From contig JBMNJJ010000002.1 of assembly GCA_050951605.1 (NCBI GenBank), forward strand, positions 274,394 to 338,393: a DNA stretch of 64,000 nt. The letters run 5' to 3'. This DNA comes from Peptococcia bacterium. Its GTDB lineage: Bacteria; Bacillota; Peptococcia; DRI-13; DTU073. The notes beneath the pieces are model-generated. The model was not told the origin of the DNA, searched no databases, and was given only the letters and a program-made list of their open reading frames with translations. Of this stretch, positions 2 through 51,087 are shown one piece after another (within the stretch, counting starts at the first letter, position 1; every line of letters begins with the position of its first letter). The position numbers were made by a program, and so were the translations under genes.

Positions 2-1345
2 AAAATTGCGGCACTAGGTATTTTTGCTTCTTCTGAAGCAGAAAGAGTTATTGATGCCGAGGGGAAATATGTATTGCCGGGTGTGATTGAAGCTCACATG
101 CATTGCATGGCCCCATTCCAAGGTTGTTTGGGAGCAAACGACTTTTTTGAACAAAGTGTCAGTGCAGCTTTTGGCGGTGTGACGATGTACATGGATTTTG
201 CCAATATGGGAAAAGGGGATTCTCCTTATAAGCAGGCTTTGGCTAGAGCTGAAGAAATGAAGGATACTGCTATTGATTATAGTGTGCATGGTAAATTTGT
301 AGAATCTACTCCGGAAGCGATTGCTGATATTGACAAAATGGTTGAAGCTGGGATACCGACTTTCAAAATGTTTATGACTTATAAGAAAGAAGGTGTGATG
401 TCTGATGATGAAACTCTGCTGAAGGTGTTCGAAAAAGCTAAGGAGGTAAACGGTCTTCCTTTGCTCCATTGTGAAAGTAATGCGATTGCTGAAACAAATA
501 TTGAAAAATGCAGAGAAGCCGATGACCTGAGTTGGGTGAATTTTGCTAAATGTAAACCTGTCTTGTGTGAAGCAGAAGCCTTTGCGCGTGCCGTTCATTT
601 TGCAGAGTATGTCGGTAATGGACTTTTAGTGGTTCATACTACAAATGGCGATGCCTTGGAGATAGCTAGAAAAGCACACCAAAAGGGATTTCCCTTGTAT
701 TTAGAAACAGGTCCTCATTATTTGACTTTATTTGATGACTTGTATGAAGGGGAAAACGGACATTTAGCTATTTGTTCTCCTCCTTTAAGGACACCGAAAG
801 AAGCGGCTGAATTGTGGGAAGGTATTCAGGATGGGACAATTTTACTGACCGGATCCGATGATTGTACTTTTGATGTAGATGAAAAGTCTTGTTTTTTGGA
901 AAAGAAGGCAGATGGTACGTGGAAACAGGATTTCACAAAAGTTGTTAATGGTATGTCGGGGATTGAAATTAGATTGCCAATATTGTTATCAGAAGGTGTA
1001 TCGAAAGGCAGAATTTCTCTTAACAAGGTTTGTGCACTGACCAGTACAAACATTGCCAAAATATATGGTTGCTACCCACAGAAGGGGATTATTGCCCCCG
1101 GAGCAGATGCGGATGTTGTTATTGTCGATATGGACAAGGAAGTAACCTTATCTAAAGATACACTGCATAACAATATCAGCTATTGCTTGCATGAAGGGAT
1201 GAAGGTTAAGGGCTATCCGGTAATGACCATCGCTAACGGCAATATTATTGTAGAAGATGGCGAGTTTAAAGGGGAAAAAGGGAAAGGGCGTTTTATCAAG
1301 AGAAAAATTAATCCGGAATACCTAAAACGTTATGCTCTAGATTAA
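2..1345 (+). CDS. D-hydantoinase/dihydropyrimidinase-family cyclic amidohydrolase; 5' end lies outside the window
   Basis: The frame is open from the window edge (...AEGKYVLPGVIEAHMH precedes the listed Met at 74). It has the AHMH metal motif, the FKMFMTYK carboxylated-Lys context, and GADADVVIVD near the C-terminus. It is a paralogue of 3664-5043. Confidence 0.85.
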   Translation, partial: KIAALGIFASSEAERVIDAEGKYVLPGVIEAHMHCMAPFQGCLGANDFFEQSVSAAFGGVTMYMDFANMGKGDSPYKQALARAEEMKDTAIDYSVHGKFVESTPEAIADIDKMVEAGIPTFKMFMTYKKEGVMSDDETLLKVFEKAKEVNGLPLLHCESNAIAETNIEKCREADDLSWVNFAKCKPVLCEAEAFARAVHFAEYVGNGLLVVHTTNGDALEIARKAHQKGFPLYLETGPHYLTLFDDLYEGENGHLAICSPPLRTPKEAAELWEGIQDGTILLTGSDDCTFDVDEKSCFLEKKADGTWKQDFTKVVNGMSGIEIRLPILLSEGVSKGRISLNKVCALTSTNIAKIYGCYPQKGIIAPGADADVVIVDMDKEVTLSKDTLHNNISYCLHEGMKVKGYPVMTIANGNIIVEDGEFKGEKGKGRFIKRKINPEYLKRYALD

Positions 1346-40920: not shown

Positions 40921-41646
40921 ATGGGTGGATTATGGGAGCCACGAGAGCAGTATTATTTTCGAAGCTCTAAACATAAATTATGGTCGTTACGAGAAAAACA
41001 ATGGACTCGGGCTCGCTTGTTGAAGATATTACGGCAAACTTTTGCATCACTGTTAATCTTTATGCTTATTTGGGGTGTTTTTTGTTTTGAAGCTCCAGCA
41101 ATGGTTCCTGTTCAAACGAAAATAAAGGAATGGTTTACGCAAGATTATGATCTGGAACCGGTAATAAAATTTTTTAGTAGTGTCGGTCTTTGGGGCAATA
41201 CTTTAGATAGAGCTGCTTTTGAAGTTGTCTCAACTACGGAAGTTACGGAGCCTTTAACAGTTCCGGTTTCAGGACAAATTGGTAAGCCGTTTGGTTGGTT
41301 GGTACAACCTGACCAGTCACGAGTTTTTCATGATGGAATTACAATTATAGCGAGGGAAGGAACCCCTATTAAAGCTGCTTTAGGGGGAACTGTATCGCGC
41401 ATAGGTAATGAGGAGGAATTAGGTAGGATTATTGTCATTTGTAGTGAGGGAGGAATTATTACCAGATATGCTTATTGCAAAGAAATATTGGTTAATCTAA
41501 ATGATGAAGTGCAAGAAGGGCAGGTTATTGCTCGGGTAGGGAAAACGGGAACGGCGACTTATCCTCAGCTTTTTTTTAGTGTTTCGGTAAAAGGGCAGCC
41601 GACAGACCCGACTAAGTTTTTTATGCCTGCAGCGAGTCGTCTATAA
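40921..41646 (+). CDS. Membrane-anchored degenerate M23/LytM-domain protein (SpoIVFA-like)
   Basis: One TM helix (LLIFMLIWGVFCF) and a C-terminal LytM fold. The canonical metal ligands are replaced: HxxxD becomes HDGIT, and HLHFE becomes QLFFS. Confidence 0.7.
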   Translation: MGGLWEPREQYYFRSSKHKLWSLREKQWTRARLLKILRQTFASLLIFMLIWGVFCFEAPAMVPVQTKIKEWFTQDYDLEPVIKFFSSVGLWGNTLDRAAFEVVSTTEVTEPLTVPVSGQIGKPFGWLVQPDQSRVFHDGITIIAREGTPIKAALGGTVSRIGNEEELGRIIVICSEGGIITRYAYCKEILVNLNDEVQEGQVIARVGKTGTATYPQLFFSVSVKGQPTDPTKFFMPAASRL

Positions 41647-41647
41647 G

Positions 41648-42094
41648 GAAAATATGCTGTACCGTTTCCCGTTCCGTGCTTCATCCAGAACAGACTAGTA
41701 CTTGATTCGGGAGAAAGCAAACCACCTTCAACAGTACCTCCTTGTCCTGATTCAGGTTGATTCTGCCGTCCTGTCAGTCTCATTGCTTTCTCGACCTCAT
41801 CTTCATAAGTCTGTTTAGCTGCACTTCGCAAAGGAACGTTAAACGGTACAGCATATTTTCTGTGGGGGAGGAAGAGGAGGTTTCCCGTTCCGTGCTTCAT
41901 CCAGAACAGACTAGTACTTGATTCGGGAGAAAGCAAACCACCTTCAACAGTACCTCCTTGTCCTGATTCAGGTTGATTCTGCCGGCCTGTCAGTCTCATT
42001 GCTTTCTCAACCTCATCTTCATAAGTCTGTTTAGCTGCACTTCGCAAAGGAACGTTAAATGGTACAGCATATTTTCTGTGGGGGAGGAAGAGGA
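41648..42094. repeat. Two tandem 216-bp units (41664-41879, 41880-42094; 3 mismatches) plus a 20-bp inverted repeat closing unit 1
   Basis: Direct comparison at a 216-nt offset gives differences only at 41769/41985, 41793/42009 and 41844/42060. GAAAATATGCTGTACCGTTT (41648-41667) is the exact reverse complement of 41841-41860. Confidence 0.9.
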
Positions 42095-42184
42095 ACTTTT
42101 TGTTGCTTAGTTAGGAAAAGCAATATATTATAAATGTAGCAATTAATGATTATCTAGTAATTATTTTGAGGGGGATTAATAGGT

Positions 42185-47956: not shown

Positions 47957-48110
47957 TTGACTTTTGCTTCAGAATATGGTATCCTTTTTCTGTTGTGGGC
48001 GTCGTGTGCCTACCAAACCGCTCAACTCGGGCATTTAAAAGTAAAAATTGATAAAGGTAATAATTACTGCCTGGAGATGGCGAGTCTAGGTTAGGGGAGG
48101 TGTAATTTAA
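47957..48110 (+). promoter_or_regulatory. Promoter (TTGACT-17-TGgTATCCT) plus a ~120-nt rplU 5' leader; candidate L21 ribosomal-protein leader
   Basis: The promoter hexamers were read directly. The long GC-richer leader (GTGGGCGTCGTGTGCCTACC...) sits in an otherwise AT-rich genome. The L21-leader identity rests on position only. Confidence 0.4.
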
Positions 48111-50981: not shown

Positions 50982-51087
50982 TGGAAAAAGGTACCTGTTA
51001 ATTGAGTTATTGGGTCATGCTATAATAATGCCGTATGTAGTCTAAGCAACATACGGCATTATTATATAGAGTGGGGGTTGAAGGGTT

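What the first reader, a model, noticed from the sequence alone, without database searches (positions are those of the whole stretch)
41648..42094. Tandem 2 x 216-bp element with a 20-bp closing inverted repeat, nested helices, and substitutions only at silent third-codon positions
Seen directly: unit 1 (41664-41879) and unit 2 (41880-42094) differ at only three positions (41769 T/41985 G, 41793 G/42009 A, 41844 C/42060 T).

Two signals point in different directions.

(a) RNA or hairpin-like structure. GAAAATATGCTGTACCGTTT (41648-41667, starting 2 nt after the stop of the M23 gene) is the perfect reverse complement of 41841-41860. Inside this 20-bp helix are four further nested, colinear complementary pairs: 41670-75/41833-38, 41676-79/41821-24, 41689-95/41809-15 and 41711-20/41783-92. 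They leave a roughly 15/16-nt internal bubble (41696-41710 versus 41793-41808) and a 62-nt apical region. The result is a rod of about 213 nt with a central bubble. Unit 2 carries only the right-hand arm (42057-42076, one C-to-T change).

(b) Coding. 216 is 72 x 3, and only one of the six frames (minus strand, listed ORF 41565-42047) stays open through both units. All three inter-copy differences fall on third codon positions of that frame and are synonymous (GGA/GGC, GTC/GTT, CCG/CCA). However, that ORF would run 82 nt antisense into the M23 gene and has only a TTG start.

The element is not a recognisable riboswitch, CRISPR, tRNA or IS end. Candidate identities are a structured ncRNA (a 6S-like rod is one speculative option), a MITE-like hairpin element that duplicated, or a 72-aa-repeat protein.
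Basis: seen in the sequence. Interest (0 to 1): 0.7.

Follow-up and report, generated by a model that had tools for sequence, protein, structure and literature searches.

The report
Tandem TwoAYGGAY-family RNA hairpin element
The repeat is two head-to-tail copies of a long hairpin-shaped RNA element from a known but functionally unexplained bacterial RNA family (TwoAYGGAY); it is not a protein gene, and its loops look like docking sites for the regulator protein CsrA.

Summary
There are 2 x 216 bp in tandem (four differences, not three), a perfect 20-bp closing inverted repeat, and a roughly 213-nt rod that folds far better than shuffled sequence.

The element belongs to Rfam family TwoAYGGAY (RF01731), in the same clan as CsrB. 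The window units score below threshold on the minus strand (28.5 and 21.5 bits; threshold 43). Paralogues in the same genome reach 45.8 and 45.2 bits. Six distinct copies show covariation (9 doubly changed pairs against 3.4 in shuffles).

The element recurs at five or more intergenic loci in an uncultured Peptococcia lineage. It is always antisense to its co-directional neighbours, usually starts 0-5 nt after the upstream stop codon, and is often in tandem arrays whose copy number varies.

The 72-codon open frame is an artefact:
- It has no start codon or ribosome-binding site.
- Copies carry frame-shifting indels.
- The orthologue pair shows no codon periodicity.
- One paralogue has stops in all six frames.

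6S is not supported, and a classical MITE is only partly supported.

The best functional guess, inferred and not tested, is that the minus-strand RNA displays GGA hairpin loops (CAAGGAGG or CAAGGAUG) identical to the flagellin-leader motifs and binds CsrA. The genome encodes fliW-csrA, and two paralogues lie in that gene cluster. The transcribed strand and the promoter remain unproven.

The parts
41648..41667 (-). Outer arm of the closing stem P1. It occurs once, at the M23-gene end of the array, and starts 2 nt after the M23 stop codon. In the TwoAYGGAY sense it is the 3' arm, followed by UUUUCCUUAU.
   Evidence: Perfect 20-nt complement of 41841-41860, extending to 28 nt at 93%. The outer stem covaries between loci: ATATGC/GCATAT, AGATGC/GCATCT, ATATAAC/GTTATAT.
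41664..41879 (-). Unit 1 (216 nt): rod core, right P1 arm and purine-rich linker. This is the only unit with a complete P1.
   Evidence: Tandem Repeats Finder, the repeat finder D1, fold z = -6.4.
41880..42095 (-). Unit 2 (216 nt), which differs from unit 1 at 4 positions. It lacks its own outer P1 partner.
   Evidence: Single-unit alleles of the same locus occur in other samples (L002, L003) and in the orthologue L016.
41676..41831 (-). Rfam TwoAYGGAY (RF01731) match in unit 1, over the full model length 1-168.
   Evidence: 28.5 bits, gathering score 43, E = 0.045 in a 1-kb search. Paralogues reach 45.8, 45.2 and 43.3 bits.
41892..42047 (-). Rfam TwoAYGGAY match in unit 2.
   Evidence: 21.5 bits, E = 1.7.
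41763..41777 (-). Hairpin A of unit 1. On the minus strand it reads CUGAC-AGGAC-GGCAG, a GGA loop with one A.G mismatch in the stem.
   Evidence: Other copies have a perfect stem of 5-9 bp, with the compensatory change GGUAC/GUACC versus GGAAC/GUUCC.
41979..41993 (-). Hairpin A of unit 2. The loop GGA has mutated to GGC (41985 G).
41732..41749 (-). Hairpin B of unit 1. On the minus strand it reads CAGGAC-AAGGAG-GUACUG. The 12-mer GGACAAGGAGGU matches the CsrA SELEX consensus RUACARGGAUGU at 10 of 12 positions, with ACA and GGA intact.
   Evidence: consensus from PMC4347634. ACA-N-GGA is kept in all eight copies of the window's subfamily where hairpin B is available (L026); the flgL paralogue's hairpin B reads GCACGGAUGC, without the ACA.
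41948..41965 (-). Hairpin B of unit 2, with the same sequence as in unit 1.
41841..41860 (-). P1 arm of unit 1 (the 5' arm in the TwoAYGGAY sense), which pairs with 41648-41667.
42057..42076 (-). Orphan P1 arm of unit 2, with a C-to-T change at 42060. It could only pair with 41648-41667, in competition with the unit 1 arm.
   Evidence: I2, 89%.
41861..41879 (-). Linker 1. It is purine-rich on the plus strand (TGTGGGGGAGGAAGAGGAG), so C/U-rich in the TwoAYGGAY sense. Its composition, but not its sequence, is conserved at all loci.
   Evidence: Alignment. It is partly complementary to the hairpin B loop region (I3, 13 nt at 85%).
42077..42095 (-). Linker 2, at the end of the array.
41565..42047 (-). 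Spurious 160-codon ORF with a TTG start, running 82 nt antisense into the M23 gene. The JGI pipeline called it a hypothetical protein.
42103..42131 (+). Promoter-like TTGCTT-17-TATTAT for the downstream radical-SAM gene. It is conserved in the orthologue and marks the right-hand limit of the element.
   Evidence: Read directly from the sequence; conservation shown.
42127..42156 (-). The only candidate promoter for a minus-strand transcript (TAGATA-18-TATAAT, 10 of 12). It is weak: the -35 box is not conserved in the orthologue, and the -10 box overlaps the plus-strand promoter.
   Evidence: 2 sites found, 1.8 expected; comparison with L016.

Best explanation
The finding is two tandem modules of a TwoAYGGAY-class structured RNA element (Rfam RF01731, the clan that also holds CsrB). 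It belongs to a small paralogous family in an uncultured Peptococcia (Firmicutes) genome.

**Anatomy (shown).** Each module is a rod of about 76 base pairs. Its apex splits into two adjacent hairpins that display GGA in their loops on the window's minus strand.

**How it most likely works (inferred, not shown).**
- The minus strand is the functional RNA.
- Hairpin B (C-AAGGAG-G here, C-AAGGAU-G in paralogues) and hairpin A (C-AGGAC-G), whose GGA motifs lie 30 nt apart, form a dual site for one CsrA dimer.
- Hairpin B copies the GGA hairpins of the organism's own flagellin leader.
- The RNA therefore acts as a decoy or dock for CsrA. Tandem amplification adds binding capacity, as in the repeat-built CsrB/Rsm RNAs.

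**Supporting steps.**
- The tandem duplication itself is a recent, population-variable expansion, probably by unequal recombination.
- The open reading frame is a by-product of the conserved, purine-rich sequence.
- The two window modules look partly degenerate: hairpin A has a stem mismatch in unit 1, and its GGA has become GGC in unit 2.
For: **Family membership**
- cmscan places both window units on the full TwoAYGGAY model, on the minus strand only (28.5 and 21.5 bits).
- Paralogues 86% identical to the window unit exceed the gathering score of 43: L011 at 45.8 bits twice, L024 at 43.3.
- A diverged paralogue on the same 846-kb contig scores 45.2 bits.
- The original description notes that the closing P1 stem is 'often very large (e.g., 24 base pairs)' (PMC2864571 supplement).

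**Structure is selected**
- 96.3% of cells are paired.
- 9 pairs have changes on both sides, against 3.4 +/- 1.3 in shuffles (0 of 500 reach it) and 1-3 in slid controls.
- The orthologous copy in a related MAG is 92.0% identical. The neighbouring radical-SAM gene is 88.6% identical (78% at third codon positions) and the adjacent intergenic DNA is 83%.

**Strand**
- The Rfam model matches the minus strand only.
- The minus-sense fold is more stable in 5 of 6 copies, by 4.5 to 17 kcal/mol.

**Link to CsrA**
- CsrB is in the same Rfam clan, CL00106.
- TwoAYGGAY has been proposed as a CsrA-binding sRNA of Clostridia (PMC4333381).
- Hairpin B keeps ACA-N-GGA in all eight copies of the window's subfamily where it could be read, and the SELEX consensus is RUACARGGAUGU with ACA and GGA invariant (PMC4347634). 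The flgL paralogue keeps ACA-N-GGA in hairpin A only.
- The L011/L016 version, GACAAGGAUGU, equals the predicted BS1 of the C. difficile fliC leader, TGACAAGGATGT (PMC8523840).
- The flagellin leader of this same genome has hairpins UUCUUC-AAGGAU-GAAGAA and AAUUC-AAGGAG-GAAUU. Their octamers equal the hairpin B loops.
- The genome encodes fliW and csrA.
- Two of the five or more copies lie in that gene cluster: one heads it in the CodY-ComF spacer, and one sits about 800 nt upstream of fliW-csrA.

**Array dynamics**
- Both 1-unit and 2-unit alleles occur at the M23 locus and at the CodY locus.
- The two units of the CodY array are 100% identical.
Against: - **No expression evidence.** Nothing shows that either strand is transcribed.
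- **No convincing minus-strand promoter.** The window candidate is no better than chance and its -35 box is not conserved. At the SpoIID-QueA locus there is no room for one.
- **Orientation.** At all five loci with co-directional neighbours, the TwoAYGGAY sense is antisense to them. At the CodY locus, and also at L024 (whose flanking genes are not known), a plus-sense terminator lies beyond the array. The plus strand is therefore probably transcribed as a 3' UTR at those loci.
- **Wobble test undecided.** The count of G-U versus A-C pairs across copies is roughly even.
- **Loop motif not universal.** The GGA of hairpin A is lost in unit 2 (GGC) and in the orthologue L016 (GAA).
- **No strand-specific GGA enrichment.** There are 10 on the plus strand and 11 on the minus strand.
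- **Dispensable.** A related species has reduced both flagellar-cluster copies to 35-nt and about 70-nt remnants.
- **Known antagonist is a protein.** In Firmicutes the established CsrA antagonist is FliW (bioRxiv 10.1101/2020.07.02.184341 abstract). The CsrA link of TwoAYGGAY has never been tested.
- **Thin sampling.** Covariation rests on only six related sequences.
Confidence: 0.45

Rival explanations
1. The element is a selfish or near-neutral palindromic intergenic repeat, similar to MITE, ERIC or Correia elements. It spreads to spots just after stop codons, amplifies and decays locally, and is transcribed only passively in the plus sense as part of the upstream gene's 3' UTR. There the long hairpin may act as a 3'-end stabiliser, a processing site or a partial terminator. 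On this view the GGA loops have no protein partner.
For: - It has 20-28-bp terminal inverted repeats.
- There are five or more dispersed copies, plus remnants.
- Assemblies break inside it in 6 of 10 contigs.
- It sits 0-5 nt after the stop codon at four loci.
- It is co-oriented in the plus sense with neighbouring genes at all five loci.
- Plus-sense terminators follow the arrays in L011 and L024.
- Copy number is polymorphic, and a related species has deleted copies, at the CodY locus between CTGTAC direct repeats.
- TwoAYGGAY is itself multi-copy in Psychromonas, with conserved flanks.
Against: - There are no target-site duplications at any locus (sequence inspection).
- The conserved linker and partial units lie outside the inverted repeat.
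- No filled-versus-empty site has clean boundaries.
- There is no match in plasmids, phages or viral contigs.
- Copies are old and sit at orthologous sites, yet they evolve more slowly than synonymous sites.
- Compensatory changes maintain pairing.
- The loop GGA of hairpin B is invariant while its neighbouring bases vary.
- The minus-sense fold is the more stable one.
Confidence: 0.33
2. The plus-strand RNA is the active species. Its loops (CAUCCUUG, CCUCCUUG, GUCCU) are anti-Shine-Dalgarno sequences. They pair with GGA- or GGAGG-containing ribosome-binding sites, such as the flagellin leader, or with the adjacent GGAGG-rich linker. This would regulate translation or the fate of the mRNA.
For: - Plus-sense transcription from the upstream genes is almost certain at three or four loci.
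- The plus-sense loops are exact complements of the flagellin-leader octamers.
- The linker is SD-like and partly complementary to the hairpin B region (I3).
- Plus-strand GGA is enriched: 10 against 5.2 +/- 2.0 expected.
Against: - The CCUCC loop is specific to the window copy. Other copies have AUCCUU or GUCCUU.
- Rfam matches only the opposite strand.
- The family-wide loop consensus AYGGAY is not complementary to a canonical SD.
- The plus-sense fold is less stable in 5 of 6 copies.
Confidence: 0.07
3. The minus-strand frame encodes a protein built of 72-residue repeats.
For: - It is the only frame open through both units.
- The three internal inter-unit differences are synonymous.
- Third codon positions vary somewhat more across paralogues: 25 variable columns against 16 and 16 at positions 1 and 2. 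This is not significant.
- Gene callers predict the ORF.
Against: - There is no ATG and no ribosome-binding site.
- The ORF ends at a different depth inside whichever antisense gene lies upstream.
- 1- and 2-nt indels change the N-terminal frame between copies.
- A stop occurs in the partial copy.
- The orthologue pair shows differences at codon positions 1, 2 and 3 in the ratio 4:4:4, against 29:19:85 in the neighbouring gene.
- Only 4 hits were found among 5.8 billion proteins. An exhaustive profile search of 1.84 billion representatives returned 6 hits: 3 element-derived ORFs and 3 spurious eukaryotic repeat proteins.
- The flgL paralogue has stops in all six frames.
Confidence: 0.02
4. The element is a 6S-like RNA, a rod with a central bubble that mimics an open promoter.
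For: It is a rod of about 213 nt, with an internal loop of about 15/16 nt in the single-sequence fold.
Against: - No 6S family matched at E <= 10.
- The 'bubble' is partly paired in the consensus fold, and the apex is a two-hairpin fork.
- The element is multi-copy and tandem, and has been deleted in a related species. This is unlike a housekeeping 6S gene.
Confidence: 0.01

Closest known systems
TwoAYGGAY RNA motif (Rfam RF01731; Weinberg et al. 2010, PMC2864571)
   Same: - Two adjacent terminal hairpins carry A-N-GGA-N loops and are enclosed by a very long closing stem P1.
- The match covers the full model length.
- Paralogues score above the gathering threshold (45.8, 45.2 and 43.3 bits).
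- It occurs in Clostridia-type Firmicutes, is multi-copy within a genome, and is not placed consistently as a 5' leader.
   Different: - The window units themselves score only 28.5 and 21.5 bits.
- Hairpin A has a 5-nt AGGAC loop (no Y), and hairpin B has AAGGAG rather than AYGGAY.
- Three things I found no mention of in the parts of the family description I read (part 1 of 41 of the alignment file):
  - head-to-tail arrays with a 19-22-nt C/U-rich linker;
  - anchoring at the upstream stop codon;
  - a consistent antisense orientation.
CsrB/CsrC/RsmX/Y/Z RNAs that sequester CsrA/RsmA (Rfam clan CL00106)
   Same: - It is in the same Rfam clan.
- It is built from repeated hairpins with GGA in the loop (CAGGACG, CAAGGAKG).
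- Repeats can be added by amplification.
- The host genome encodes CsrA.
   Different: - There is no sequence homology to CsrB itself.
- Each module carries only two or three GGA sites inside a long rod.
- There is no identified promoter, terminator or regulator.
- The host is a Firmicute, where the known CsrA antagonist is the protein FliW.
- CsrA binding has not been tested.
CsrA binding sites BS1 and BS2 of the hag/fliC leader (B. subtilis, C. difficile; PMC8523840)
   Same: The loop-plus-closing-pair octamers CAAGGAUG and CAAGGAGG are identical to those of the flagellin leader of the same genome. GACAAGGAUGU equals the predicted C. difficile BS1.
   Different: The element's sites are not next to a start codon. 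They lie on the strand antisense to the neighbouring genes.
Palindromic intergenic repeats such as ERIC, Correia, BOX and RUP elements
   Same: - It is a dispersed 100-250-bp imperfect palindrome in transcribed intergenic spacers.
- It has terminal inverted repeats.
- It shows modular or tandem variation (as with boxB).
- It breaks assemblies.
   Different: - Copy number is very low (about five).
- There are no target-site duplications.
- It sits at orthologous positions and evolves more slowly than synonymous sites.
- Its loop motifs are conserved.

Membership tests
TwoAYGGAY RNA (RF01731) | Covariance-model score at or above the curated gathering score (43 bits) | tested here: inconclusive
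   The window units score 28.5 and 21.5 bits and do not meet it. Clear paralogues do: L011 45.8 twice, L024 43.3, and L028 12895-13050 at 45.2. L023 scores 39.2 and L013 36.7. The window unit is 86% identical to L011.
TwoAYGGAY RNA (RF01731) | Two adjacent terminal hairpins whose loops carry AYGGAY | tested here: inconclusive
   Two adjacent hairpins are present in every copy. Hairpin B loops read AAGGAG, AAGGAU, AAGGAC, or the canonical AUGGAC (L024, L026) and ACGGAU (flgL copy). Hairpin A reads AGGAC, with GGC in unit 2 and GAA in L016. GGA is kept, but the Y positions often are not.
TwoAYGGAY RNA (RF01731) | Long closing stem P1 ('often very large, e.g. 24 bp') | tested here: met
   The stem is 20 bp perfect, or 28 bp at 93%. 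Five of its pairs show compensatory changes between loci.
TwoAYGGAY RNA (RF01731) | Conserved secondary structure supported by covariation | tested here: met
   9 of 76 pairs change on both sides, against 3.4 +/- 1.3 in shuffles (0 of 500) and 1-3 in slid controls. Only 6 sequences were available.
CsrA/RsmA-sequestering RNA (CsrB/Rsm type) | Binds CsrA through multiple GGA motifs in hairpin loops | not testable with these tools
   The motif evidence is only indirect. ACA-N-GGA is kept in a hairpin loop in the eight subfamily copies where hairpin B could be read. It matches RUACARGGAUGU at 10-11 of 12 positions and is identical to the flagellin-leader octamers.
CsrA/RsmA-sequestering RNA (CsrB/Rsm type) | Host genome encodes CsrA | tested here: met
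   fliW (PF02623) and csrA (PF02599, 79 aa) lie on the same 846-kb contig, at L028 13852-14560.
CsrA/RsmA-sequestering RNA (CsrB/Rsm type) | Independent, abundant transcript with its own promoter and terminator | tested here: inconclusive
   The only minus-strand promoter-like site is weak and not conserved. P1 is flanked by A- and U-rich tracts on both strands. No expression data are available.
MITE (non-autonomous DNA transposon) | Terminal inverted repeats | tested here: met
   20-28 bp.
MITE (non-autonomous DNA transposon) | Target-site duplications flanking the inverted repeats | tested here: not met
   The junctions at five loci show no consistent direct repeat (sequences). The conserved linker and partial units lie outside the right-hand repeat.
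MITE (non-autonomous DNA transposon) | Many near-identical dispersed copies, and empty sites in relatives | tested here: not met
   There are about five loci, with 86-92% identity between them, at orthologous positions. The relative without the element carries internal-deletion remnants rather than a clean empty site.
6S RNA | Match to a 6S covariance model; a single-copy rod with a central open-promoter-like bubble | tested here: not met
   No 6S hit at E <= 10. The apex is forked, and the element is multi-copy and tandem.
Protein-coding gene (72-aa repeat) | Frame conserved among homologues, codon periodicity, start signal | tested here: not met
   Frame-shifting indels; stops; differences at codon positions in the ratio 4:4:4 in the orthologue pair; TTG start with no ribosome-binding site.

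The most novel reading that the evidence does not exclude
These TwoAYGGAY arrays would be RNA decoys for CsrA in a Firmicute that also has FliW. That would make them the first RNA antagonists of CsrA outside the Proteobacteria. They would be built from rod-shaped modules that copy the flagellin-leader binding sites, partly embedded in the flagellar fliW-csrA cluster, with binding capacity tuned by gain and loss of tandem units within the population.
Probability: 0.22. Interest if true: 0.75.

Novelty: new member of a known kind. Interest (0 to 1): 0.42.

Why it matters
TwoAYGGAY is an orphan RNA family whose role is still unknown more than fifteen years after it was described. Whether Firmicutes have RNA antagonists of CsrA, as Proteobacteria do, is an open question.

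This lineage offers an unusually direct test bed:
- The modules carry the same GGA hairpin octamers as the organism's own flagellin leader.
- Two paralogues sit inside the fliW-csrA flagellar cluster.
- Copy number varies between strains.
- A related species has lost copies.

Practically, the finding also flags recurrent false 'hypothetical protein' calls of 64-160 aa, and assembly breaks, that this element causes in metagenomes.

If the CsrA link fails, the result is ordinary: a low-copy palindromic intergenic repeat of a known family.

Tried and rejected
**Searches for further copies**
- Within the window, blastn, nhmmer and Rfam at E <= 1 over the whole window found nothing beyond the two units.
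- A 21-nt core pattern was scanned in three collections:
  - Species-representative genomes: the only true hits were two loci of one MAG, DUTO01 'Clostridia bacterium'.
  - JGI metagenome contigs: chance hits only.
  - Viral contigs: none.
- Plasmid and phage collections gave no match.

**Protein route**
- The ORF translation found 4 element-derived ORFs among 5.8 billion proteins.
- The exhaustive profile search added one true relative, P0006/L026. It also returned three spurious eukaryotic repeat proteins, P0005, P0007 and P0008; P0005 was traced to a 205-Mb chromosome.

**Strand tests**
- The G-U versus A-C count across copies was inconclusive.
- GGA counts per strand did not discriminate.
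- I looked for sigma-A, sigma-D and sporulation-sigma promoter matches upstream of the arrays in the minus sense by eye. None was convincing.
- P1 as a bidirectional terminator is plausible for the window's subfamily, where A- and U-rich tracts flank the stem. The flgL paralogue has no U-tract on either strand, so the idea is not general.

**Other ideas dropped**
- A circular or rolling-circle (viroid-like) reading of the tandem rod was rejected. The outer 16-nt arm lies outside the repeat unit, so a unit-length circle could not form P1.
- A regex search for CsrA in the window and the early loci found nothing. csrA was later located by walking from FlgN.
- L009, which joins M23 to queA, is a chimeric assembly across the shared 34 nt of the element. 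It is not a rearrangement.
Full report
**1. The observation**

- Tandem Repeats Finder reports one array at 41664-42094, with period 216, 2.0 copies and 98% matches.
They also differ at the final base, 41879 G against 42095 A.
- GAAAATATGCTGTACCGTTT (41648-41667) is the perfect complement of 41841-41860. With the next helix, the pairing extends to 28 nt at 93%.
- The 246-nt region folds at -92.2 kcal/mol on the minus strand (z = -6.4) and -83.8 kcal/mol on the plus strand (z = -5.2). No shuffle did as well.
- Only one frame, on the minus strand, is open through both units.
- The unit is 47% G+C in a 37% window, and there is no other copy in the 64 kb.

**2. Where else the element occurs**

*Source.* The window comes from an 846-kb metagenomic contig (JGI 3300053716). 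A source names an identical protein from this contig 'Peptococcia bacterium'.

*The same locus in other samples.* Contigs carrying the identical M23 protein show this locus with two or more units (L001, L010) or with one unit (L002, L003). Six of ten contigs stop inside the element.

*Orthologue.* The orthologous M23/radical-SAM spacer of a related MAG (DUTO01, locus L016) has one unit.

*Paralogous copies.*
- SpoIID to QueA: one unit, a linker and a 52-nt partial unit (L012-14, L018).
  - The window species also has this copy. It is seen in L009, which is a chimeric assembly across the shared 34 nt.
- CodY to ComF, on the same contig: two 219-nt units that are 100% identical, plus a partial unit. 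Another sample has one unit here.
- Two short contigs of unknown genomic position, L023 and L024. One unit in L024 carries an insertion of about 75 nt.
- A more distant relative next to leuC (L026).
- A strongly diverged copy between flgL and the DUF6470-fliW-csrA genes, on the same contig.

*Common pattern.*
- At every locus with co-directional neighbours, the window's plus strand is the sense strand of those genes.
- In four loci the stem base lies 0-5 nt from the upstream stop codon.

**3. What it is**

- In a 1-kb Rfam search, the only noteworthy match was TwoAYGGAY (RF01731). It lies on the minus strand, covers the full model length, and scores 28.5 and 21.5 bits against a gathering score of 43.
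- On its own that would be unconvincing. However, the paralogues score 45.8 (twice), 43.3, 39.2 and 36.7 bits, and the flgL copy scores 45.2.
- The original description of the family mentions exactly this anatomy: two terminal loops with AYGGAY, and a closing P1 that is 'often very large (e.g., 24 base pairs)'.
On the minus strand it holds two hairpins:
  - Hairpin A: CUGAC-AGGAC-GNCAG.
  - Hairpin B: CAGGAC-AAGGAK-GUACUG.
- On six distinct copies, 96.3% of cells pair. Nine of 76 pairs have changes on both sides, against 3.4 +/- 1.3 in shuffles (0 of 500) and 1-3 in slid controls.
- The covarying pairs include five in the outer stem, and GGUAC/GUACC versus GGAAC/GUUCC in hairpin A.
- Between orthologues the element is 92.0% identical. 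The adjacent radical-SAM gene is 88.6% identical (78% at third positions) and the neighbouring spacer is 83%. The sequence is therefore under constraint where it is present.

**4. Not a protein, not 6S, not a classical MITE**

*Protein.*
- The open frame has only a TTG start and no ribosome-binding site.
- It runs antisense into whichever gene lies upstream.
- Its upstream part changes frame between copies through 1- and 2-nt indels.
- It meets a stop in the partial copy.
- The orthologue pair shows no periodicity: differences at codon positions 1, 2 and 3 are 4:4:4, against 29:19:85 in the neighbouring gene.
- The flgL paralogue has stops in all six frames.
- Protein searches of 5.8 and 1.84 billion sequences found only ORFs called inside these elements.
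- The three synonymous differences are a small-sample coincidence.

*6S.* No 6S model matched.

*MITE.*
- Inverted repeats and dispersed copies exist.
- No target-site duplication is present.
- The conserved linker lies outside the inverted repeat.
- Copies are old and sit at orthologous positions.
- Nothing matched plasmids, phages or viral contigs.

**5. Which strand**

*For the minus strand.*
- Rfam matches only that strand.
- Its fold is more stable in 5 of 6 copies, by 4.5-17 kcal/mol.
- The array logic fits. In the minus sense every unit starts with a P1 5' arm, and a single 3' arm plus a U-rich tail closes the array next to the convergent gene.

*Against the minus strand.*
- I found no convincing minus-strand promoter.
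- The G-U versus A-C count is even.
- At the CodY locus the array sits between the stop codon and the gene's own terminator. A related species retains that terminator after deleting the array. The plus strand is therefore almost certainly transcribed there.

The functional strand is unresolved.

**6. How it most likely works (inferred)**

- Rfam places TwoAYGGAY in clan CL00106 with CsrB (verified). Gardner and Eldai proposed it as a CsrA-binding sRNA of Clostridia.
- Hairpin B keeps ACA-N-GGA in all eight copies of the window's subfamily where it could be read. The SELEX consensus is RUACARGGAUGU, with ACA and GGA invariant and GGA in a hairpin loop. The flgL paralogue carries ACA-N-GGA in hairpin A only; its hairpin B loop is the canonical ACGGAU.
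  - The window version, GGACAAGGAGGU, matches 10 of 12 positions.
  - The L011/L016 version, GGACAAGGAUGU, matches 11 of 12.
  - GACAAGGAUGU equals the predicted BS1 of the C. difficile fliC leader.
- The flagellin leader of this genome carries two hairpins, UUCUUC-AAGGAU-GAAGAA and AAUUC-AAGGAG-GAAUU, the second over the Shine-Dalgarno sequence. Their octamers CAAGGAUG and CAAGGAGG are the hairpin B octamers.
- The genome encodes fliW and csrA. One array heads the comF-flgM-flgK-flgL-fliW-csrA cluster, and the canonical paralogue lies about 800 nt upstream of fliW.
- I therefore favour a CsrA-docking or decoy RNA whose capacity changes with the number of tandem units.

*Weaknesses.*
- There is no expression or binding evidence.
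- The GGA of hairpin A is lost in unit 2 and in L016.
- GGA is not enriched on one strand only.
- A related species has reduced both flagellar-cluster copies to remnants.
- FliW is the known antagonist in Firmicutes.
- The window units, with their low Rfam scores, look like the most degenerate members.

**7. Tandem structure**

- The junction between the linker and GTTTCCCG is the same at every locus, and most arrays end in a partial unit of 19-52 nt.
- Units within an array are 98-100% identical, while loci differ by 8-14%.
- Arrays therefore expand and contract locally, probably by unequal recombination between a unit and the partial unit. They do not grow by repeated insertion.
- The sequence to the right of the arrays in L011 and L023 (TTTTAGCTGGGTACTGCCTCGGGTAT...) is homologous to the left end of the flgL-type paralogue. 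Composite arrays of two subfamilies therefore occur.

**8. Verdict**

- This is a real, structured element and a diverged member of a known orphan RNA family.
- The protein and 6S readings are rejected.
- The selfish-repeat reading remains a serious rival.
- The CsrA link is the most informative hypothesis to test.

Noticed in passing
window 48010-48097 (+): A near-threshold match to the ribosomal protein L21 leader (RF00559): 34.6 bits against a gathering score of 36, E = 0.0034 over the whole window. It is probably a genuine L21 leader just below the cut-off.
   Followed up: no
window 51021-51066 (both strands): The same 46 nt give weak mir-122 matches on both strands (27.7 and 26.3 bits). 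This suggests a near-perfect palindromic hairpin, perhaps a bidirectional terminator.
   Followed up: no
window 41565-42047 (-); L028 7561-7890 (-): Gene callers annotate 160-aa and 109-aa 'hypothetical proteins' inside these RNA elements. Related calls of 64-92 aa exist in public protein sets (P0001-P0004, P0006). All are probably spurious.
   Followed up: yes
L004-L008 and L010 (the M23 locus in other samples): Six of ten contigs carrying the identical M23 protein end inside the element. L009 is a chimeric join to the queA locus across 34 shared nucleotides. The element is an assembly breaker.
   Followed up: partly
L028 14640-14724: The flagellin leader has a sigma-D-like promoter (TAAA...TCGATAT) and two GGA hairpins (AAGGAU, and AAGGAG over the Shine-Dalgarno sequence). 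This is the classical CsrA BS1/BS2 layout, and it is conserved in the related species L031.
   Followed up: partly
L031 3295-3458 and 8029-8129: A related species (GCA_028684635.1) keeps only a 35-nt remnant in the CodY-ComF spacer and a left-arm remnant of about 70 nt in the flgL-DUF6470 spacer. The CodY-ComF copy was removed by an internal deletion between CTGTAC direct repeats.
   Followed up: yes
L024, about 215-290 (reverse complement): One unit carries an insertion of about 75 nt that replaces part of the right arm. The array is followed by a strong plus-sense terminator-like hairpin (GGGACGGGGTTGTTGACA...TGTCAACAACCCCGTCCC).
   Followed up: no
L026 1-200 (reverse complement): A distant relative next to leuC is preceded by three tandem 39-nt repeats of its own left part (GGGCAAATGTGTGTGTCTTCGCCGTTTCGTTCTTCATAA). 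Here the TwoAYGGAY sense points towards leuC, unlike at the other loci. The contig ends inside the element.
   Followed up: no
L011 3776-3790 and L023 148-162; L028 12862-12910: A conserved block to the right of two arrays (TTTTAGYTRGRTACTGCCTCGGGTAT) is homologous to the left end of the diverged flgL paralogue. It is therefore a remnant of a second subfamily and not a promoter module. Its role is unknown.
   Followed up: partly
P0005, P0007, P0008: The profile of the ORF translation hits repetitive proteins at E down to 4e-9; P0005 was traced to a 205-Mb eukaryotic chromosome, the other two look eukaryotic by sequence only. These are artefacts of repeats matching repeats, not relatives.
   Followed up: yes
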